From the human T2T-CHM13v2.0 reference genome, Homo sapiens, in the NCBI RefSeq assembly GCF_009914755.1, contig NC_060927.1: a stretch of DNA of 64,000 nt; one strand, 5' to 3'. A program made the position numbers and the translations under genes. This document shows, one piece after another, positions 24,200 to 35,639 of this stretch. Position 1 is the first letter of the stretch, and every line of letters begins with the position of its first letter. The notes beneath the pieces were generated by a model. That model was not told where the DNA came from. It saw only the letters and a program-made list of their open reading frames with translations, and did no database searches.

Positions 24200-26110
24200 A
24201 GAGGTCATTATCTTAAGTAAAACAACTCAGAAACAGAAAGTCAAATACTGCACGTTCTCCTTCATAAGTGGGAGCTAAATAATGTATACACATGGACATA
24301 GAATGTGGAGTAATACACACTGGAGACTCAGAAGAACGGGAGGTAGTGGTGGGGGGTGAAGGATGAGAAATTATTTAATGGGTACAATGTACATTATTTG
24401 GGTGATAGATACACTAGAAGCCAAGACGTCATCATTATGTAATATATCCATGTAACAATGCAATTGTACCACTTAAATTTATATTTTAAAAAAAATCATA
24501 AGGAAGAAAAATATATTTACTATTCATTATGTGGAAGTAGGTCATCATAAAGGCTTTCATCCTCATTGTCTTCACACTGAGTAGGCTAAAGGAGGAAGAG
24601 GAAGAGGAGGGGTTGGTCTTACTGTTTCAGGGGTGGCAAAGGTAGACGAAATTTTGGATTTAAGTGGACCTTCCCAGTTTAAACCCATGTTGTTCAAGAA
24701 TCAACTGTACTGTGAACAACTCTACACACATAAAACTTGTCAACTTAGATGAGATAAACCCACTCTTCAAAAAGCACAGACTACTATAACTCATCTATGA
24801 AACAGATAATTTGAATAGCCCTGTAACTACTAAGGACATTGAATTCATAATTAAAATCTCCCAAGAAAAAAATTTCCAGGCCCAGAGAGTTTAACTGGAA
24901 ACTATTTCAAATATTTAAAGAATAATTAGCACTTTGAAAAGGAATGAAATGGGAAGAATCACTCTACCCAATTTTAAGACTTATTTCATAGCTATAGTAA
25001 TATGTGATATTGGCAGAGGGACAGACACAAAGATTAATGGAAGAGAGTTAAAAAAACCCAGAAGTAGCCCCACACAAGTATGGCCCACTGGTTTTTGACA
25101 GTGGTGCCAAAGCAAGTCAATGAGGGAAGGATAGTCTTTTCAACAAATAGTGCTAGAGCAACTAGATGCTCATAGACCAAAAAAAAAAAAAAAAAAAAAA
25201 CAACAAAAATCAAAACCAAGAAACCTCAATCTAAACCTTTGACCTTATACACAAATTAACTCAAATTGGATCATTGATATAAATGTAATGGATAAACTAT
25301 AAAACTTTAAGAAGAAAACATAAGAGAAAATCTTTGAGACCTAAATCTTGGTGAAGAGTTCTTGGACATAACACCAAAAATATAATACATAAAAGAAAGA
25401 ATAGATAAACTATTAAAATGAAAAACATTTGCCCTGCAAAAGGCCCTGTTAAGACCATCTCCAGAATGGGAGAAAATATTTTCCAACCACATATCAGACA
25501 AATAGCTCATGTCTAAAATATATATAGAATCCTCAAAATTCAACATTTAAAAAGAAAACAAAACAAACAAACAAAAAACAACCAATTCAGTTAAAAAATA
25601 GGAAATGACTTGAAGAGACATTTCATGGAAGAGGATTTTTCAAATGGCAAATGAGCACATGAAAATATATTCAATGTCACTAGCTACAAGGGAAAGGCAA
25701 ATTAAGACCATGATAAGATATTATCACATATGTATCATAATAGTTAAAACAGTAAAAATAGTGGCAATACCAAATTCTGACAAGGATGTGGAAAAATCTA
25801 GATATCTCATACTTTGCTATCTAGTTTGGGGAATGTAACATGGCATAGCCACTCTGAAAAGAGTATAGCAGCCTCTTAAAAACCAAGCACGCACCATATG
25901 TGTTAGTCAGGGTTCTCCAGGAAAAAGAGCCAACAGGATAGATAGTGCTGGCCTGGGCCACCAAGATTTTTTAACAGTCACCTTCCAACCCTGCCCCAAG
26001 TGATTCCATGAGCAGCTAAGATTAAGAACCACTGCCCAGGGGAGACTTGGATTTTGTATGCAAAACAATTACTCCATGTGGTCCTACAATTTAGGCAAAT
26101 TTGAAAGATA

Positions 26111-26335
26111 CCCTTGTCTCTACCATCTGACATACCACCCACACTCAGCACTTGGCCAGCTCTGGGAACCCCTTGTATTCTTCTGGCTTTGAGAGAAATT
26201 GTTGAATGTAAGGTATGAGTCCTGCTGAAATCTGGGCCGTTCCTACTTCTTGGCTGAATATTTTGTCTGAGCTGGCCCCACATTGGCTCAAGTAAAGTCT
26301 TCAAAATTATTAATATATTTTGTGCCTCAGCTTCC
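26111..26335 (+). repeat. Permuted local copy of the provirus leader (28156-28321) followed by the 5'LTR end (28041-28105)
   Basis: Direct match, e.g. CTTTGAGAGAAATTGTTGAATGTAAGGTATGAGTCCTGCTGA and TTGGCTCAAGTAAAGTCTTCAAAATTAT. Confidence 0.9.
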
Positions 26336-27018
26336 TCAGCTGTAAAATGAGAAAGACACTCATCTTGCAGAGTTGAGTGCTTTAGATGTGATGTTGGTCA
26401 ATGATTGCCATTTTGTAGAAGCTTAACAAATGGTAGCCATTATTTTGAAAAAAAAAAAAAAAATAGGATATCATTGAAATCAGCAGCAGCAAAGTTAAAA
26501 GACAGAATTGTGGCTCCTGTTTAGTTCACATATTTCCCTGGGAAGGAGGAAAGTTTCTATGCTGGGGCATAGAAAACAAGGGGCTATACCTCAATGGTCC
26601 CAAACTGACCTTATCAGGTTGGCCTTCTTGATAGTTTCACTTTCCAGATGCTAGAGAAATTTGCTGTGGGCCACTGCCCTCTATTGAAGTAATATTGTCA
26701 CTTCTGAGGAAAGAATACTTGGACTTGCCATAGGAGAAGTCAAGGATTGCACTTGAATTTCATCTCACTGGGGTAAAGCTGACCCCTGTGTGAGCACTGA
26801 GAGAGAAAAGAAACTTTTTATGTGAGGAATACAAACCCCTTTAATATATCCAGCCCAGAAAGGCTTTGGAGTAAAAAGCTGTCACATCTCAGTCCCTGCT
26901 TGAGCTAAGTAGTTACCTCTTGAAGCCACTTGCTGTGGGCTCTGGACTAACTGATGCCACGTAGCTATAAAATGCCATATACCATAATCATGGATGCCAC
27001 AACTCATATCCTCTAGCT

Positions 27019-27524
27019 CAGGGGTCCTCAACCTCTGGGACGCAGACCAGTTAGGAACTAGGCTGCACAGCAGGAGGTAAGCAGTGGGCAGGCAAGTGAG
27101 CAAAACTTTATCTGCTGCTACCCATTTCTAGTATTACCACCGGAGGTCCTCCTCCTGTCAGATCAGCAGCAGTATTAGATTCTCATAGAAGTGCAAACCC
27201 TATTGTGAACTGTGCATGCGAGGGACCTAGGTTGCATGCTCCTTACGAAAATCTAATTCCTAATGATCTGCCACTGTCTCCCATCACCTCCAGATGGGAC
27301 CATCTAGTTGCAGGAAAACAAGCTCAGGGCTCTTACTGATTCTACATTATGGTGAGTCATGTATTTCATTATATATTACAATGTAACAATAATAGAAATA
27401 AAGTGCACAATAAATGTAATGCACTTGCTTCATCCCCAAACCATCTCCCCTACTCCTCCTAGGTCTGTGGAAAAATTGTCTTCCATGAAACTCGTCCCTG
27501 GTGCCAAAATTTTGGGGACCACTG
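27019..27524 (+). mobile_element. MER1A (hAT-Charlie MITE), in the 5' LTR only
   Basis: TIRs CAGGGGTCCTCAA / TTGGGGACCACTG. 8-bp TSD CTCTAGCT/CTGTAGCT. Confidence 0.88.
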
Positions 27525-27652
27525 CTGTAGCTCAACAACATAAAGCCAATCACTAATCAATGTTATTTCTGCAAACCAATGAGAATTCCTGTCAAATAGC
27601 TTTGTATCAGTCCACTCCTTGCTCACTTTTTGTCTTTAAAAACCTGCCTGAA

Positions 27653-27972
27653 TGGATGCAGCTGGAGACAATTATTCTAAGTGAATTAACACAGGAACAG
27701 AATACCAAATACCGCACGTTCTCACTTATAAGTGAGAGCTAAACATTAGGCACACAGGGACATAAAGCTGGGAACAACACACATTGGGGACTATTAGAGT
27801 GGGGAGAGAAGGAAAGGGGCAAAGACTGAAAAACCACCTATTGGGTACCATGGTCGCTACCTGGCTGATGGCATCATTTGTACCCCAAACTTCAGCATCA
27901 TGCAATATAGCCATGTAACAAACATGCACATGTAACCCCCTGAATCTAAAATAAAAGTTGAAATTATTTTTT
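27653..27972 (+). mobile_element. L1PA15/16-like 3' end in the 5' LTR
   Basis: TGGATGCAGCTGGAG...CTAAAATAAAAGTTGAAATTATTTT. TSD AAAAACCTGCCTGAA / AAAAAGCCTGCTCGCA. Confidence 0.88.
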
Positions 27973-28126
27973 AAAAAGCCTGCTCGCAACAAAGGCTGGA
28001 TGCGGCACTCCCCAAAGCAACTTGGAAGTGTGTCCTGAGCAGCTGGCCTCATGTTGGCTCAAGTAAAGTCTTCAAAATTATGAATATATTTTGTGCCTCA
28101 TCTTCTTCCTTTGGGGTCAGCATTTT

Positions 28127-28144
28127 TGGTGCCATGAGAAGGAT
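28127..28144 (+). promoter_or_regulatory. Degenerate primer-binding site (His or Leu)
   Basis: TGGTGCCATGAGAAGGAT, 4 nt after the LTR. It matches 14/18 to both the His PBS TGGTGCCGTGACTCGGAT and the Leu PBS TGGTGTCAGGAGTGGGAT. Confidence 0.6.
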
Positions 28145-28998
28145 TCAGAATAACCCCCTTGGCTCTACTATCTGACTTACCTCCCAGACTCAGCGCCTGG
28201 CCAGCTCTGGGAACCTCTTGTATTCTGACTTTGAGAGAAATTGTTGAATGTAAGGTATGAGTCCTGCTGAGATCTGGGCCTTTCCCATTTTTTGGTTGAA
28301 GGTCTAGATTTTGCCTGAGCTATGTTTTCCGATCCTCCCTTACTAGAATGGGAGTTTTCCATCTGTGCCTAATGGGCAGGAGATTTGGGTTCCAGAAAAG
28401 AAAAAGGGTAGGGGGAACAGCGTTTTTTCACCTCTGCCTTGGGGAAGGGAGGTCTGGGTCCAGGCATTGGCAATTTGACATTGGTGGTTTTGCTTTACAT
28501 AGCACGCTTTTAAAATTGCAGCTGCTTCCTATTGTTTGAAATTCAGACTTGGATGTTTCATCTGTGACCAATTCCTATTAGTTCTAAACTGAAAAGTGCA
28601 TGAGAGTGAGTTCTCTTGCTATGGAGAAAGGGCAGTTGCTCACTTTGACCAATTGGAGTGCTCTAGGTGACTGGAGACTTTGCAGAGTTTGCAGAGTCTC
28701 TGCAGACTTTGCAGAGGTGTCAAGGCTGTTGTCTAGGATATAAAGGACGCTCGTAGGGTATTCCTCACCACAAGAACGTTTTTTAGGGACTCGATCATCT
28801 GCATGGGCATAAAATACGGGACTGATCGCTCATACCTTTAGCACTCTGGTGCCACCTGGTGGTTAGAGGCATTCTGAGACAACGTAAGAGAGCAACTCAT
28901 GACTTTTGGGTGACACCTAGAGGAGCAGTGCTCGTAAGCACCACACTTCCACCCAAACACATCCTGGGCCTTGGTCATTTTTAAGAAGTTCCTAAGTT

Positions 28999-30006
28999 AC
29001 GGGAAATCAAGCTTGAAAATCTGAGCGCTCTTTTAAGGGACAACCATTGTTAGAAACACCATCTGGTTTTATGTACAACACTTATGAGACATCCTCTTGT
29101 AAATATCTAGGAAAACGGACCCATATAGCCCAGGATGATCATCAACAATGGCCAAAATGTGGGTCTTTTGAAATGCCCAAAATGATTCATTTGTGTGCAC
29201 AATAGAGAAAAAAGCTGGTTTTAGAACATGAAATAGGATAATTACTTCCAATGGCACCTAGAGTTTTTTTAAGATAAATTCTGAGAAAATTGCCTCAATC
29301 CAAGAGGTAAACAAAAAGATCCTAAATCTATTTCTGAATTTAAAAAGACTTTGAAGCCCTCCTCCCTTCCACTTCCAGCTGTTTCTCCTCATCCTACCCC
29401 TGCACCTTTATATCCTCTCTTATCTCAAGTCCCCTGTCCTGCCCTTCCTTCCCTCCCACTACCACCTTAGGAAATTCCCTAGAACTTGAACCCCCTCCCT
29501 GAAACCCCATTTTGGCAGCCCCTTTTCAGGTAAAACCACAGCAAGAGGTGAGACCACTATTATGTATACCCCTTGGACAAAAACTGAACTGAAGAATATT
29601 ATAAAAGACTTCCCTGACCTGCTCCAAGATCCCATAGGGTTTGCAGAACAATCTGCTTTAATTGTCCAGACTTATAAGCCCAGATATTCTGACCTTTATC
29701 AATTAGTTCACATGCTGGTATGAGAAGGCAGGGCCACTGAATGGCAAAAAAGGCAATCTGGAAAAATCCCTCAGAGGATTTGGAAAAACAAACAGAAGCT
29801 GACCATGAGAAGATCCACACTTTAGCCAAGTCTCTCTGTGATGCCATTTCCTGGGTCTTTCCTCAAATGTAGAGTGGAAGATAATTCAACAATATACTCA
29901 AAGGCCAGATGAATTTGTGCTTAATTATTTTGAACAGTTAAAAAAAAAACCTTTTAACAATATTCTGGAATGGAATGCCTGATGCTAGCCTCCAAGATCA
30001 CCTATA
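28999..30006 (+). pseudogene. gag: Class I ERV gag (MA-CA), decayed
   Basis: (ACG)GNQA*KSE start. Capsid YTPWTKTELKNIIKDFPDLLQDPIGFAEQ and YKPRYSDLYQLVHMLV. Confidence 0.8.
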
Positions 30007-30077
30007 ATCGTGCCACTGTACTCTGGCCTGGGCAACAGAACAAGTCCTTGTCTCAAAAAAAAAAAAAGAAAAAAAAA
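30007..30077 (+). mobile_element. Alu 3' stub at the gag/RNase H deletion junction
   Basis: ATCGTGCCACTGTACTCTGGCCTGGGCAACAG...TCTCAAAA. No TSD. Confidence 0.8.
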
Positions 30078-30277
30078 GCCAACAAGTCTCCAACCTCTTG
30101 GAAGCAGTCCCCAACTGAAATCTCATAAAAATATAAAAATTCCTGGTCATGCCAAATTAGATACTCCAGAGAGCAAAGGCAATCATTTCACTGACAATGC
30201 CGCTAAGAATGCAGTCCTGAAGGTTACATCAGACAATAGATACCTTGAAATGTCCTTACAGACTTATTACCCATTTA

Positions 30278-30487
<210 letters not shown>

Positions 30488-31432
30488 TTATTAGAAGCAG
30501 CACAAACAGGAGCTCTCAAGAAGGAAATCGACCTCAGGAAAGATAAAGGAACCAAGTTTTCCCCAGAAACAGGCTTATGATGTGGACTTAATGATAGACC
30601 AATCTTTCCCTTAGGGCTTCAATTACCCTTTAAATGATGTGTTTATGAGCTGACTCATTGGAATCCAGATGAAACGACAGCTTGGGGAAAGCAATATTAT
30701 TGGAAACCATCCCCTCTTGTTTATTCTTGCTGATGGTTTGTCCCAAACATAATCCTGGAAAACTCCTTCATAGGTTACAGGGACATTTTCCTTTACCTTT
30801 AGGACCCTTTGATATATGGCAATTGGACTTTATCCAGCTGCCCCTGTCTCAGGGTTATAGATATGTTCTGGTGCTAATTTATGTGTTTTCTCATTGGGAT
30901 GAAACCTGCCCGTGCCAATGAGCCATGGTCCAAGTAGTAAGAAAATTGTTATTAGAAAAGATAATTCCTTCATGGGGAGTTTCATCTGAGCTCCAGAACG
31001 GCCAAGAAACACATTTTACTGGTCAAGTAATTCAATCCATTTGCAACATTTGGCCTATATTCCAATTGTGCTTTTAACCCCCAATCCTCTGGACTGGTGA
31101 AACACACCAATGGTATAATAAAAACTCAATGGCCAAACTAATTGAAGTTTTTAACCTCTCCTGGCCAAAGGCTGTCTCATTAGTTCTGCTCAGCCTGTGA
31201 TCCACACCATTTGGAAAACACCAGCTCTCTCTCTTCAAAATAATAACAGGAAGGCCCACGTGACTAGATGAAGGAACTTATGAACTTGCATTTCTTAAAG
31301 GTGATATCCTCCATTACTGCCACAGTCTCAGAATACTTCTTATTAAGAACTCAAAATTAATCAAGAGTTCCTTCTGCAGAGAGCTCTGGGGAGATGAAAT
31401 CATCAAAAATCATGGCCTGTAACTGGAGATTT

Positions 31433-31820
31433 CTTTTTTCTTTTTAAAGGTCTCTGATGTCTAATATTTGACAGACCAGTGAAGTAGTTTTGGCATTGCA
31501 AGCATTTTTGCCCTTTGTGAATTTCCCACTAGAGTGATTTGCAACTATTCCTTTTCTTTTTTTCTTTTTTTTTTTTAAAAATCTTATTCTAGATTTGGGG
31601 ATACACATGCAGCTTTGTTATAAGGGCATATTGTGTGATGCCGAGGTTGGGGTGTGGTTGAACCCGTCATTCAGGTAGTGAGCATAGTACCCAATAGTTA
31701 GTTTTTCAGCACTTGCCTCCCTGCCTTCCTTTCCCTTCTCATAGTTCCCTGTGTCTCTTGTTTCCGTCTTTATGTTCGTGTGTACCCAATGTTTAGCTCC
31801 CACTTACAAGTGAGAATATG
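31433..31820 (-). mobile_element. L1PA15/16-like 3' end with a 3'-transduced segment
   Basis: L1 body 31577-31820, poly-T 31552-31576, non-L1 segment 31446-31551, second poly-T, TSD TGGAGATTT (31424-31432 and 31821-31829). Confidence 0.82.
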
Positions 31821-32117
31821 TGGAGATTTTGATTACTGGAAAGGATGTCGAATAAAAGATTCCTTCTCACCCAGTGGGAAGGGACCATATCAGGTACTAT
31901 TGGCCAATCCCTGTGCCACTAAACTTAAAGGCATTGATGCATAGATTCATATTTCTCATTTTAAAAAGACAACCCTACCTGAGGGGACGTCTTTCATCAT
32001 GGGAGATCTTAGTGGAATTGACTTGCAGTCTTCCTGACCAGAATGGAAAGTAGCTGACATTTGTGGTCACCTGTTTTCACCCAAGATACCAGACCAAGCC
32101 TGTATAACTTGTTCTTC

Positions 32118-33970
32118 ATGATTCTAATGCCTACCACACCTGAAATATTTGCTCTCCTTTTTCTATTGACTGGAATACTTATGGCGTTAGGCCTCCATAC
32201 TGTGAGTATCCTCTCTTGGATAAAATTGTTTTGGTAAAATCATCATATATATATTTATATGTGCATATATACATGCATACACACACACACACACACACAT
32301 ATATTCTCTTAGGATATATGTAAACAAATGCCTATAATCAGGCTCCTTTTTTTTTTTTTTTTTTTTTTCCTTTTTTTAGAGATGGGGTTTTGCTCTGTTG
32401 CCCATGCTGGAATGTAGTAACATGATCATAACTCACTGCGGCCTCCAACTCCTGGGCTCAAGCAATCCTCCCGACTCAGCTTCCCGAGTAGCTGGGGCAA
32501 CAGAAGTGCACCACCACACCCAGCTAATTAAAAAAAAAATTGTAGAGAAGGGTCTTGCTATGTTGACCACACTGGTCTCAAACTCCTGGCCTTAAGTAAT
32601 TCTCCCACCTCGGCCTCTCAAAGTGCTGGGATTACAGGCATTAGCCACTGCACCTGGCCTAGGTTTCTGTTTTTGCCGTCCCTGATAAATTTGACTGTAG
32701 CATGGAGGGATAATTCTCTGATCAGAATCCCACACACCATTGCCACTGCTGGAAATCTGAAGAGATGCTGGGTTTGCTACCCTAAACCAAAAACTACTTT
32801 TGACCACAATGACCCACTGGTACATTCTGCCCTAAATTTCACCAGTGTTCATGATAGCACTTGTAACACAACTCAGGGCCACATAAAAGCAAACCTGTTA
32901 ATCAGGTCTGCCTGACTCATCCTAACCTGTTTGTCCTATGTTTCAATGTAACTCATCAGAATTCTTTTGTCAAAAATCACTGCTGCGTTACTCACTAATG
33001 ACAGTACTAAAATCCATGATGTTGTTAGAAAATCCAAAGAAAACAGCCCCTCCAGCTATCAGGATCCTGTCTTCTTGCTTTAACATTTCTGACCCATTGA
33101 TCCAGTAATGCCTCAAAACTGATGTTCTTAAATTATAGTGTACTTATCTGTGCTCCACCAGGATTTATTATAGTCTGTGGAGAAAATCACCAGCCATGGT
33201 CCTGTAAGTGTCTAAGAGCATGGAATGTTGAAGGGCAATATGTCTTAGGATATTTCGTTACCCTTCTCTCTATATACAGCTCTGAAGAAACTCAGCACTG
33301 GACTAGTTCCCTCAAACTTTTCTCTAGGCATGACTGCAGATCTACCTTAGATGGAGATTCTATTTAGAGAAAATGTGCTAATTATCTGGCTGGCCATCAA
33401 GAAGATAGCTCCATGCATTTTTTTTTCTTTGAGAATACTTTTGCCTTTGTTGGATGTAACTTCCCATGAACACATGATCTAAAATCCTTCTAAAACCCTA
33501 GGAAACATTGCTGATGAAACTGCTGTCTCCATCACAGCTCAACAAAAAGCTACAGATTTACTGACTAAGGTTGTGCTAGACAATCACATTGCTTTAGATT
33601 CTATATTAGCTGAGCAAGGAGGTGGATATGTGGTGGCAAATACCTCTTGTTGTATATACATAAGTATTTCCCATGAAGTAGAAACTCACCTAGGAAAAAT
33701 CAGGGAAGAAGCTGCTTGACTACAGGTCTCTAAAGAAAAACTGAGATTTAATTTTCTTCAGGAGGTTTTTAGTTGACTCTTAACAGACTAGATTCCTTTT
33801 TCATTCTGGCATAAAAATTCTCTTTTTGGTTCTAATCCTATGTGCATTATATATTTCTATTATTCCAATTAATGCTAGATATCTTTCATTGTTTTATTTC
33901 TTCTGAGAAAATGAAAATCATGGTATTCCAGAGACTGGCGATGATGGAGCAAACAACAGCAGCTATGTAA
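32118..33970 (+). pseudogene. env: Gamma-type env, decayed, interrupted by (CA)n and AluJ
   Basis: Hydrophobic leader IFALLFLLTGILMALG. SU NLKRCWVC (CXXC). TM LDNHIALDSILAEQGGGYVVANTSCCIY (ISD plus degenerate CX6CC) at 33576-33659. Confidence 0.85.
32347..32659 (-). mobile_element. AluJ inside env
   Basis: Full diverged dimer. Confidence 0.87.
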
Positions 33971-34186
33971 GTCAATACTTTGTGGACTCACTTTTGCCAT
34001 TCTGTATTGTCATCCTGATTCAGCTTTTTGGTGCTCTTAAAATTCCTCACTGAGATGTCTCCACTCCCCCATGTGGGACAGGGCTACCCAGGAATGAGCC
34101 TTCCTGGTGACAAGGGACAAGCTGGCACTCAGATTTGTATCATCAGTGCTTTTGAGGAGAAAAATTTGTGATCAAAAGGAAGGAAA

Positions 34187-34979
34187 TGAGAGCAAAAGGA
34201 AACTTTTAATCATAGGAATGTGAGCCCTTTTAAATTATCAGTCCCAGAAAAGCATTGGAATGAAAAGCTATCACATCTCATGCCTCCCTTGAGCTAAGTA
34301 ATTACCTCTTGAAGCCACTTGCTATGTGGACTCTAGACTAACTGATGCCAAGTAGCTATAAAATGCCATGCACTGGACGCCATAACTCATATCCTCCAGC
34401 TCAACAATGTAAAGCCAATCCCTAATCAATGTAATTTCTATAAACCAATGAGAATTCCTGCCAACTTTTTATCAGCTCACTCCTTGCTTTCTTTTTGTCT
34501 TTAAAAATCCACTTGTACAGATGTAGCTGGAGGCCATTATCCTAGGCGAATTAATGCAGGAAAAGAAAACCAAATACTGAATGTACACGCTTATAAGCAA
34601 GAGCTAAACACTGGGCACACAAAGACATAAAGACGGAAACCGTAGACACTGGGGGCTACTAGAGGGTGGAAGAAAGGAGTGGGGTAAGAATTGAACAACT
34701 ATCTTATTGGGTACTATGCTCACTACCTGGGCGATGGCATCAGTCATACCCCAAACCTCAGCATCTTGCAATATACCCATGTAACAAATGTGCATATGGT
34801 ACCTCCCGAATCTAAAATAAAAGTTGGATTTTTTTTTTAAAGCCTGAATGCAACAAAAGCTGGATGGAGTACTCCCCAAGGCAACTTGGAAGGGTGTCCT
34901 GGGCAGCTGGCCTCACATTGGCTCAAGTAAAGTCTTTAAAATTACATTTTGTGCTCAGCTTCTTCATTTTAGGTGGACA
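34187..34979 (+). mobile_element. 3' LTR (contains the same L1PA 3' fragment)
   Basis: Follows the PPT, ends GGTGGACA, and is followed by TSD GCAC. Confidence 0.9.
34518..34838 (+). mobile_element. L1PA15/16-like 3' end in the 3' LTR
   Basis: CAGATGTAGCTGGAGG...CTAAAATAAAAGTTGGATTTT. TSD AAAAATCCACTTGTA / AAAGCCTGAATGCA. Confidence 0.88.
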
Positions 34980-35639
34980 GCACTTGCAGAAAACCTTGCC
35001 CCTCTTAAGGAGTTCCTGTAATCATGATAGCTAATACATGGAGCAGCCTATGTCTGCTCTAAGCATTTGACATATATTATTAAAAAAAAAAAAAAAAGGT
35101 TCCATCACCGCAAACACAACTCATCACACCGCGAACACAAGAGGCAGGTACTAATGTGATCTACATCTATACAGATTAGGGAACTGAGGCACAAGGAGGC
35201 AAGTAACTTGGCCAAAGTCATGCAGCCAGGGAGCATCAAAGCTGGCTTCAGTCTTTATTCCTAACCAGCCTCTTGAATTCCTCTGATGCTTTCGATCTTA
35301 TCATGACAATTGTTCTGCAGCCTGTATTGTGGTCCAAGTATTTTTTTCTCCATTTTAAACACTTTGAGTTTGCACTCCATCCTGTCTGCCCCTCCCCTTC
35401 ACAGCAAATTTCTTGAAAGAATAGGCCACGTTCACTCTCCTTCCAGCAGCAAGCCTGCCATCAGTTTTCACTCCCAAGGTCAGGAGTCTGGCCTTGGCCT
35501 GGCTCACTGATCTGCCTGTGCACTGTTCCCCAATACTCCCACTCACTTCCATGTCTCAACAATCATGCATAATGCCGGCACCCCCAACCCCATACATTCA
35601 GTCCAAACCTCCCTCTTGAGCTACAGATCTACAGTGGTC

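What the first reader, a model, noticed from the sequence alone, without database searches (positions are those of the whole stretch)
26798..34979. Both LTRs of one provirus carry the same L1 3'-end insertion: an L1 fragment apparently replicated as part of a retroviral LTR
Seen: a sense L1PA15/16-like 3' end sits at the same LTR position in the 5' LTR (27653-27972, 320 bp) and the 3' LTR (34518-34838, 321 bp). The 5' junctions coincide: AAAAACCTGCCTGAA|TGGATGCAGC versus AAAAATCCACTTGTA|CAGATGTAGC, where TG and CA are the two decay products of one CpG. Both right-hand TSD copies share AGCCTG..GCAAC, unlike the left copies. The two L1 copies look about as diverged from each other as the LTRs do. 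MER1A, by contrast, is in one LTR only. Established: reverse transcription makes the two LTRs identical at integration, and independent L1 insertions truncate at variable points. Inference: one L1 inserted into the LTR of a parent provirus, and the chimeric LTR was then copied by retroviral replication. It adds an AATAAA just after the TATA-like TTTAAAA. This predicts a chimeric LTR-L1 subfamily that annotators would split into separate repeats. Early LTR-LTR gene conversion is the alternative.
Basis: partly seen in the sequence, partly recalled or inferred. Interest (0 to 1): 0.85.

Follow-up and report, generated by a model that had tools for sequence, protein, structure and literature searches.

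The report
Old provirus, same L1 piece in both LTRs
An ancient endogenous retrovirus in an XCR1 intron carries the same 320-base LINE-1 tail at the same spot in both of its end repeats; this is real and probably one insertion event, but no other copy exists in the genome, so it is a one-off curiosity, not a new repeat family.

Summary
A degraded gamma-like provirus (26798-34979, 4-bp duplication GCAC) has a sense L1 3' end in both LTRs (27653-27972; 34518-34838). Its first 87 nt encode the last 27 residues of L1 ORF2p.

Other LTRs of the family lack the L1: 0 of 35 carry it. Five junction searches of the whole assembly returned only the window's own two LTRs. The predicted chimeric LTR-L1 subfamily was therefore not found.

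The L1 pair is not younger than the LTR pair: 21.7% against 14.5% mismatches, and 6.5% against 5.5% for transversions alone. Late gene conversion is excluded.

The insertion site, just after the TATA-like TTTAAAAA, is an L1-endonuclease hotspot: 6 of 35 other LTRs have independent Alu or L1 insertions there with the same duplication. The two L1 copies also share no excess of derived sites (7 against a null mean of 7.0).

My odds:
- copied by reverse transcription from a parental 3' LTR, about 0.45;
- very early LTR-LTR conversion, about 0.38;
- two independent hits, about 0.07.

Interest is modest.

The parts
26794..26797 (.). left copy of the provirus target-site duplication GCAC
   Evidence: sequence; same 4 bases at 34980-34983
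26798..28119 (+). 5' LTR (starts TG, ends CA), enlarged by a hAT element and the L1 piece
   Evidence: family copies
27019..27524 (.). hAT (MER1-like, name recalled) DNA transposon, 5' LTR only; 8-bp duplication at 27011-27018 / 27525-27532
   Evidence: terminal inverted repeats and CTCTAGCT/CTGTAGCT; the 3' LTR has one copy (alignment)
27635..27642 (+). TATA-like TTTAAAAA, which is also the L1-endonuclease first-nick site
   Evidence: nick rule from passages of PMC2836564
27638..27652 (+). left copy of the L1 target-site duplication in the 5' LTR
   Evidence: the motif occurs once in empty LTRs
27653..27972 (+). L1 3' end: last 29 codons of ORF2, stop, 3' UTR, AATAAA at 27950-27955, T-rich tail
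   Evidence: ORF2p 1247-1273, E 1e-6
27973..27989 (+). right copy of the L1 target-site duplication, with an extra G at 27978
28062..28067 (+). the LTR's own AGTAAA poly(A)-signal variant (role inferred)
   Evidence: sequence; AATAAA or AGTAAA at this place in other copies
28127..28144 (+). primer-binding-site-like 18-mer starting TGGTGCC (His-like from recall only)
   Evidence: sequence
28120..34186 (+). degraded internal region: weak integrase core (30673-30918), MLV integrase C-terminus (31702-31941), env TM (33483-33716); Alu-like and antisense L1 inserts; polypurine tract 34174-34186
   Evidence: (all below Pfam cut-offs)
34187..34979 (+). 3' LTR
34503..34517 (+). left copy of the L1 target-site duplication in the 3' LTR
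34518..34838 (+). L1 3' end in the 3' LTR (AATAAA at 34816-34821)
34839..34853 (+). right copy of the L1 target-site duplication, extra G at 34842
34980..34983 (.). right copy of the provirus target-site duplication GCAC

Best explanation
One L1 element was inserted by target-primed reverse transcription into the LTR of a germline provirus of this old gamma-like ERV family. It landed at the TT|AAAAA site just after the TATA-like box, 5'-truncated to about 320 bp. The insertion most likely sat at the end of U3 in the 3' LTR of the parent provirus. A transcript that read through the L1 poly(A) signal into R was reverse transcribed, which copies the 3' U3 to both ends. The daughter provirus therefore integrated here (4-bp duplication GCAC) with the L1 piece already in both LTRs. 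In the daughter, the L1 piece separates the TATA box from the old start site and places an AATAAA upstream of the old R. This probably crippled it, which would explain why it left no further copies. Shown: one L1 piece at the same place in both LTRs, a TPRT duplication, absence from other LTRs, and an L1 pair as old as the LTR pair. Inferred: which parental LTR was hit, the read-through, and the dead end.
For: (1) Collinear L1 pieces of 320 and 321 bp with the same 5' end within about 2 nt, the same 15-17 bp duplication and the same extra G before CCTG in both right-hand copies. (2) The L1 pair is not younger than the LTR pair: 67 of 309 (21.7%) against 64 of 440 (14.5%) mismatches; transversions 20 of 309 against 24 of 440 (p 0.64); non-CpG 16.7% against 12.4% (p 0.12). 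No 60-column stretch around the L1 has low divergence. Replication predicts this result without needing any special timing. (3) No excess of shared derived L1 sites (7 against a null mean of 7.0 from 325 pairs of 26 genomic copies), so little time passed between insertion and duplication, as expected for an active element. (4) The intact GCAC duplication shows the two LTRs belong to one integration. (5) Feasibility: inserts of 250 bp to 1.2 kb placed in U3 of a vector's 3' LTR are copied to the 5' LTR on reverse transcription (PMC2736623, section 5 passage).
Against: No parent or sibling was found. Only the window's own two LTRs span either junction (2 of 40 scored hits each; 1 of 40; the sister LTR was missed, so sensitivity is imperfect). 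None of 35 other LTRs carries this L1. The sense L1 AATAAA upstream of R should truncate most parental transcripts. Nothing in the human sequence distinguishes this from a conversion that happened soon after integration. A nearby patch copied from this provirus (26105-26334) shows that templated repair did act at this locus. The L1 sequences alone do not prove a common origin.
Confidence: 0.45

Rival explanations
1. Very early LTR-LTR gene conversion. The provirus integrated with plain LTRs. An L1 then hit the hotspot in one LTR within roughly the first third of the provirus's residence. A break in the other LTR, possibly made by L1 endonuclease at the same hotspot, was repaired from the L1-bearing LTR, copying the 336-bp insert with its duplication.
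For: No other genomic copy of the chimeric LTR was found (0 of 35 LTRs). The site is cut often: 6 of 35 other LTRs have independent insertions there. A 230-bp patch copied from this provirus's leader and R/U5 lies 460 bp upstream, with junctions at short shared motifs, and is unique in the genome. So templated repair using this provirus as donor did occur here. Conversion is expected mainly while LTRs are still near-identical (PMC4724089, LTR-divergence passage).
Against: A conversion tract should be younger than the rest of the LTR. Instead the L1 pair is the most diverged part (21.7% against 17.0% in distal part A and 12% in the flanks). Integration, L1 insertion and conversion would therefore all have to fall close together in time. 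The tract would also have to span a 336-bp heterology. The hAT element in the 5' LTR was never converted.
Confidence: 0.38
2. Two independent L1 insertions of the same subfamily hit the same hotspot in the two LTRs. A short match between the LTR target and L1 (GCAACA, just 5' of the truncation point) steered both to the same 5' end.
For: The hotspot is real: 4 Alu and 2 L1 insertions in 35 other LTRs at the same nick with the same duplication. L1 copies read GCAACA immediately before the truncation point, and the LTR target reads G(T/C)AACA right after the duplication. The two L1 pieces are no closer to each other than to random subfamily members: the sister ranks 13th of 27 for the 5' copy, and there is no excess of shared derived sites. 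The 12 nt at the left junction differ at 5 positions.
Against: Both LTRs would need an L1 of the same old subfamily, while 0 of 35 other LTRs has one. They would also need the same length (320 against 321 bp), the same tail and the same extra G. The two other L1 insertions at this site are about 1.17 and 1.2 kb long with different 5' ends, so the short match does not force this truncation.
Confidence: 0.07

Closest known systems
Inserts in U3 of a retroviral vector's 3' LTR ('double-copy' design)
   Same: Foreign DNA in the 3' U3 is copied into both LTRs of the integrated daughter by reverse transcription (PMC2736623, passage read). This is the proposed route here.
   Different: Here the insert would be a natural L1 TPRT event in a germline provirus. 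It is sense-oriented with its own poly(A) signal and is seen only as a roughly 40-50 Myr-old fossil. No replication was observed.
Hotspots of nested transposable-element insertion (Levy, Schwartz and Ast 2010, PMC2836564)
   Same: Alu and L1 insert at fixed positions of older repeats where a TTTT|AA nick site is followed 15-16 bp later by a second nick site (passages read). The LTR site here fits this, and 6 of 35 other copies are hit.
   Different: That paper does not, in the passages I read, describe this LTR family or an insertion shared by both LTRs of one provirus.
LTR-LTR gene conversion within a provirus
   Same: It can make the two LTRs alike after integration, mostly early (PMC4724089, passage read).
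   Different: The usual signature, a tract of lower divergence, is absent here. Here it would have to copy a 336-bp insertion.
Mosaic ('noncanonical') HERVs that proliferated after recombination or secondary integration (Vargiu et al. 2016, PMC4724089)
   Same: A provirus carrying foreign repeat sequence that may have been passed on by replication (abstract and passages read).
   Different: Those are families with several copies and mostly ERV-ERV mosaics. Here there is a single locus, the foreign part is a LINE fragment inside the LTR, and no second copy was found.
HERV-W processed pseudogenes (L1 machinery copying ERV RNA; PMC5016936)
   Same: An interplay of L1 and an ERV, with the TT/AAAA motif and duplications of 5-15 bp (passage read).
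   Different: The direction is reversed: there L1 mobilises ERV RNA, here an ERV LTR carries an L1 fragment. This provirus has full U3-R-U5 LTRs and a 4-bp duplication, so it is not a processed pseudogene.

Membership tests
L1 (LINE-1) 3'-truncated TPRT insertion | Sequence is L1: ORF2 C-terminus followed by the 3' UTR | tested here: met
   27 residues match ORF2p 1247-1273 of 1275, E 1e-6; 26 genomic copies 76-83% identical over 289-331 aligned columns, extending further 5'.
L1 (LINE-1) 3'-truncated TPRT insertion | Target-site duplication of about 7-20 bp starting at a TT|AAAA nick site | tested here: met
   a 15-17 bp duplication beginning AAAAA. The motif occurs once in 29 empty LTRs.
L1 (LINE-1) 3'-truncated TPRT insertion | Poly(A) tail | tested here: inconclusive
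   No A-run beyond the As of the duplication itself. Other old copies of this subfamily also end in only 4-7 As.
   No Dfam or Repbase library here. Only this: the two copies lie 10.4% and 15.8% from the majority of 26 relatives, which themselves lie 11-20% from it.
Gamma-like (class I) endogenous retrovirus provirus | Two LTRs with TG...CA ends flanked by a 4-bp duplication | tested here: met
   GCAC on both sides.
Gamma-like (class I) endogenous retrovirus provirus | Primer-binding site after the 5' LTR and polypurine tract before the 3' LTR | tested here: met
   Sequence at 28127-28144 and 34174-34186. The tRNA assignment is from recall only.
Gamma-like (class I) endogenous retrovirus provirus | pol and env domains of gamma type, in order | tested here: inconclusive
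   rve (E 0.0067), MLVIN_C (E 0.00049) and TLV_coat (E 0.00016) in the right order, but all below Pfam cut-offs. Matches in 3 of 20 reading frames tried. The gag-pro-RT region gave nothing.
   2 of 40 scored hits each span a junction, both from the window; 1 of 40. 0 of 35 other LTRs carry it. Only the best 40 candidates per search are scored, so this is not exhaustive.
LTR-LTR gene-conversion tract | Tract with lower LTR-LTR divergence than the rest of the LTR | tested here: not met
   L1 21.7% against LTR 14.5%. Mismatches per 60 columns range 3-17, with no low stretch around the L1. A very early conversion would leave no such trace.
hAT (MER1-type) DNA transposon in the 5' LTR | Terminal inverted repeats and an 8-bp duplication | tested here: met
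   ends CAGGGGTCC... / ...reverse complement CAGTGGTCC; CTCTAGCT/CTGTAGCT. The family name is recalled.

The most novel reading that the evidence does not exclude
A LINE-1 fragment that landed in the U3/TATA region of a germline provirus was carried through at least one full retroviral replication cycle. This gave a daughter provirus whose two LTRs each contain the L1 piece, so that most of its new R region would be L1-derived. It would be a natural 'double-copy' event and a fossil of an ERV transducing non-LTR retrotransposon sequence inside its LTR.
Probability: 0.45. Interest if true: 0.5.

Novelty: new variant of a known kind. Interest (0 to 1): 0.33.

Why it matters
If the L1 piece did pass through reverse transcription, this locus is a natural record that an LTR can pick up and transmit a LINE fragment. 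It also matters for dating: LTR-LTR comparison then dates the insert as well as the provirus. In practice it is a warning for annotation and dating. A nested repeat present in both LTRs need not be younger than the provirus. A shared insertion site is weak evidence of shared descent when the site is an endonuclease hotspot; here about one LTR in six of the family was hit at the same nucleotide. Because only one locus exists and the mechanism cannot be settled from human sequence, the finding is of modest general interest.

Tried and rejected
(1) Shared-derived-site test on the L1 pieces against 26 genomic relatives gave no signal: 7 sites against a null mean of 7.0, with 162 of 325 pairs at or above 7. 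One rare shared transversion was seen, but 53% of random pairs have at least one rare shared site. At 73 common-variant columns the two copies agree at 53, and the variants are mostly CpG-type.

(2) Pfam on the 29-residue ORF2 tail returned nothing. The PDB sequence search worked instead.

Single open frames were then used.

(4) I looked for this provirus in the supplement of PMC4724089 by coordinate prefixes. There was no hit; the table may not be held.

(6) Literature: full-text searches returned no paper whose listing, or the passages I read (PMC8156875, PMC5016936, PMC4724089), describes a secondary TE insertion shared by both LTRs of a HERV. Only the held library was searched.

(7) The late gene-conversion reading was rejected on divergence.

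(8) The T-rich tail was rejected as a private shared mark because it is a subfamily feature.

(9) I tried to show that the DNA around the upstream patch is one old SINE. One search gave only two matches of 39-40 bp, so that label rests on recall.

(10) L027 and L078 do not form an LTR-L1 subfamily of their own. Their L1 inserts differ in 5' end and in internal orientation.

(11) Repeat-family names for the LTR and for the L1 subfamily could not be assigned, because no repeat library was available.
Full report
**What is there**

The window holds a degraded provirus on the + strand from 26798 to 34979, antisense to XCR1.
- The LTRs are 26798-28119 and 34187-34979. They begin TG and end CA.
- The 4-bp duplication GCAC flanks the element at 26794-26797 and 34980-34983.
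- A primer-binding-site-like 18-mer follows the 5' LTR (28127-28144). A polypurine tract precedes the 3' LTR (34174-34186).
- Of 20 open frames tried, 3 gave weak Pfam matches in the expected order: integrase core (30673-30918), MLV integrase C-terminus (31702-31941) and env TM (33483-33716). All are below the curated cut-offs.
- I read this as an old gamma-like ERV with a largely lost gag-pro-RT region.
- The intact 4-bp duplication means the two LTRs come from one integration.

- BLAST aligns the LTRs in two pieces at 81%. The gap is a 506-bp hAT element at 27019-27524, with terminal inverted repeats and the 8-bp duplication CTCTAGCT/CTGTAGCT. It is present only in the 5' LTR.
- Each LTR contains a sense L1 3' end: 27653-27972 (320 bp) and 34518-34838 (321 bp).
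- The first 87 nt translate to a peptide matching residues 1247-1273 of the 1275-residue human L1 ORF2 protein (E 1e-6).
- Twenty-six genomic relatives, 76-83% identical over 289-331 aligned columns, continue further 5' into L1.
- The two pieces are collinear except for one 1-bp indel and a 2-bp tail difference.
- Each is flanked by a 15-17 bp duplication of LTR sequence starting AAAAA: 27638-27652 / 27973-27989 and 34503-34517 / 34839-34853.

**The family LTR lacks the L1, and the site is a hotspot**

I read the site in 35 other LTRs of the family. They were:
- the LTR-only hits among the 30 loci;
- the best 27 non-window loci (one is the same place as a locus and is counted once, and two lacked the upstream half);
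- both LTRs of the provirus whose leader is the best non-window match.

Three of the 35 are near-identical paralogues on one chromosome.

Results:
- In 29 of 35 the target motif occurs once and the LTR runs straight through.
- None of the 35 has the 320-bp L1.
- Six of 35 carry independent endonuclease-type insertions at the same nick with the same duplication: four Alu (L010, L022, L068, L076; name from recall of the Alu 5' end) and two longer L1 inserts. The L1 inserts are L027 (about 1.17 kb) and L078 (about 1.2 kb), with different 5' ends and one internal inversion.
- The site fits the published rule of a TTTT|AA nick followed 15-16 bp later by a second nick (PMC2836564, passages read).

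**Search for other chimeric copies**

Five whole-assembly searches used queries centred on the left or right LTR-L1 junction of either LTR.

| Query | First-look candidates | Scored hits spanning a junction |
|---|---|---|
| 201 bp | 3212 | 2 of 40, both from the window |
| 106 bp | 1056 | 2 of 40, both from the window |
| 206 bp | 1712 | 2 of 40, both from the window |
| 206 bp | 2077 | 2 of 40, both from the window |
| 131 bp | 902 | 1 of 40 (self only) |

- One search missed the sister LTR, so the tool is not exhaustive.
- One hit reached 11 nt past the junction. It is L023, which one search shows to be empty.
- The family is larger than my sample: 111 and 440 first-look candidates.
- Within these limits, the predicted LTR-L1 subfamily does not exist in this assembly.

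**Relative ages**

The table compares the 5' LTR with the 3' LTR.

| Segment | Mismatches |
|---|---|
| LTR part A (26798-27017) | 36 of 212 (17.0%) |
| LTR part B (27537-27637) | 12 of 97 (12.4%) |
| LTR part C (27973-28112) | 16 of 131 (12.2%) |
| LTR total | 64 of 440 (14.5%) |
| L1 | 67 of 309 (21.7%) |

- L1 against LTR total: Fisher p 0.014.
- The excess in the L1 is in transitions: 47 of 309 against 40 of 440 (p 0.011).
- Transversions are alike: 20 of 309 against 24 of 440 (p 0.64).
- With CpG-type columns removed the figures are 16.7% against 12.4% (p 0.12).
- Mismatches per 60 columns run 17, 11, 3, 9, 8, 13, 14, 17, 14, 8, 11, 7. There is no low stretch around the L1.

The L1 pair is therefore at least as old as the LTR pair. 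A late conversion is excluded, and the L1 was in both LTRs from about the time of integration. [quoted passage not shown]

**Do the L1 sequences prove one event? No.**

- Against the majority base of 26 genomic relatives, the 5' copy differs at 10.4% of columns and the 3' copy at 15.8%. The relatives differ at 11-20%.
- The two copies share 7 derived sites. The mean for 325 random pairs is 7.0, and 162 pairs reach 7.
- The sister ranks 13th of 27 for the 5' copy and 2nd of 27 for the 3' copy.
- The T-rich tail is a subfamily feature.
- This star-like pattern fits a duplication soon after insertion. It would also fit two independent insertions from one subfamily.

**What argues for one event is structural**

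- The lengths are 320 and 321 bp.
- The 5' end is the same within about 2 nt.
- The alignment across both junctions is gapless.
- Both right-hand duplications have an extra G before CCTG. This base is A in most other LTRs, though one of six independent insertions also has a G there.

Two caveats apply. L1 copies read GCAACA immediately before the truncation point, and the LTR target reads G(T/C)AACA just after the duplication, so a short match could favour this 5' end repeatedly. The 12 nt at the left junction also differ at 5 positions. Against independent hits, none of 35 other LTRs has an L1 of this subfamily, and the two other L1 inserts at the site have quite different lengths. I put independent hits at about 0.07.

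**Replication or early conversion**

Both explain one event present in both LTRs since about integration.

Replication needs no timing coincidence. An L1 at the end of U3 in a parental 3' LTR is copied to both ends if a transcript reads through the L1 AATAAA. Experimental vectors show that U3 inserts of 250 bp to 1.2 kb behave this way (PMC2736623). The daughter would then have its TATA box separated from the old start site by 336 bp and an AATAAA upstream of the old R. That offers a reason for leaving no descendants (inference).

Conversion needs integration, L1 insertion and repair to fall close together, across a 336-bp heterology. It is helped in three ways:
- LTRs recombine best while near-identical.
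- The hotspot invites endonuclease breaks at exactly this site.
- There is direct evidence of templated repair at this locus (next section).

I give replication 0.45 and early conversion 0.38. The remainder is independent hits or something not considered.

**A related oddity upstream**

- 26111-26258 matches the provirus leader 28156-28300 (88%), and 26270-26334 matches R/U5 28041-28105 (92%). The order is leader then R/U5.
- The join lies in a motif (CCTGAGC) that both source segments share.
- The patch is closer to this provirus than to any other family member (75-81%), and its structure is unique in the assembly.
- I read it as a templated repair patch copied from the nearby provirus. It says nothing about the L1, because it skips U3.

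**Comparison with what is known, and verdict**

Nested-insertion hotspots, U3 duplication by reverse transcription and LTR-LTR conversion are all known. A secondary LINE insertion shared by both LTRs of one human provirus did not turn up in four full-text searches or in the passages I read from three papers.

The finding is real and somewhat unusual, but it concerns a single locus, its mechanism is unresolved, and its main prediction failed. I rate it a new variant of a known kind, interest about 0.33.

Noticed in passing
LTR family site equivalent to window 27635-27652; loci L010, L022, L027, L068, L076, L078: The TTTAAAAA motif just after the CCAAT/TATA region of this LTR family is a recurrent L1-endonuclease target. 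Six of 35 other LTRs carry independent sense Alu (4) or L1 (2) insertions at the same nick with the same 14-17 bp duplication.
   Followed up: yes
window 26105-26334: A 230-bp patch made of provirus leader (88% to 28156-28300) joined to LTR R/U5 (92% to 28041-28105) in the 'wrong' order, 460 bp upstream of the 5' LTR. The join lies in a shared CCTGAGC motif. It is unique in the assembly and closer to this provirus than to any other family member. It looks like templated break repair using the provirus as donor. The surrounding DNA looked to me like one old SINE (recall only; one search gave no real support).
   Followed up: partly
window 26448-26463 and 35084-35099: Two clean runs of 15-16 A lie about 115 bp downstream of the patch and about 105 bp downstream of the 3' LTR. 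They are unusually pure for DNA of this age. Their origin was not examined.
   Followed up: no
window 31584-31816: A third L1 3'-end fragment, antisense, inside the provirus. It is 75-76% identical to the two LTR-borne pieces and is an independent nested insertion.
   Followed up: no
window 30007-30453 and 32346-32665: Alu-like inserts inside the provirus, matching many other stretches of the window at 72-90%. They account for part of the 6-kb internal length.
   Followed up: no
loci L061, L062, L063 (one chromosome, three places): Three LTR copies of the family with near-identical sequence and identical hit geometry. They probably lie in a segmental duplication, so I counted them with that caveat.
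   Followed up: no
locus L027, right end of its L1 insert: The L1 tail is followed by a run of about ten Cs before the duplication, instead of an A tail. Unexplained.
   Followed up: no
window 26918-26977 vs 34307-34366: This stretch of U3 has only 3 mismatches in 60 columns between the two LTRs, against 7-17 elsewhere, and is also well kept in other family copies. It may be a mutational cold spot, a constrained element or a short later conversion.
   Followed up: no
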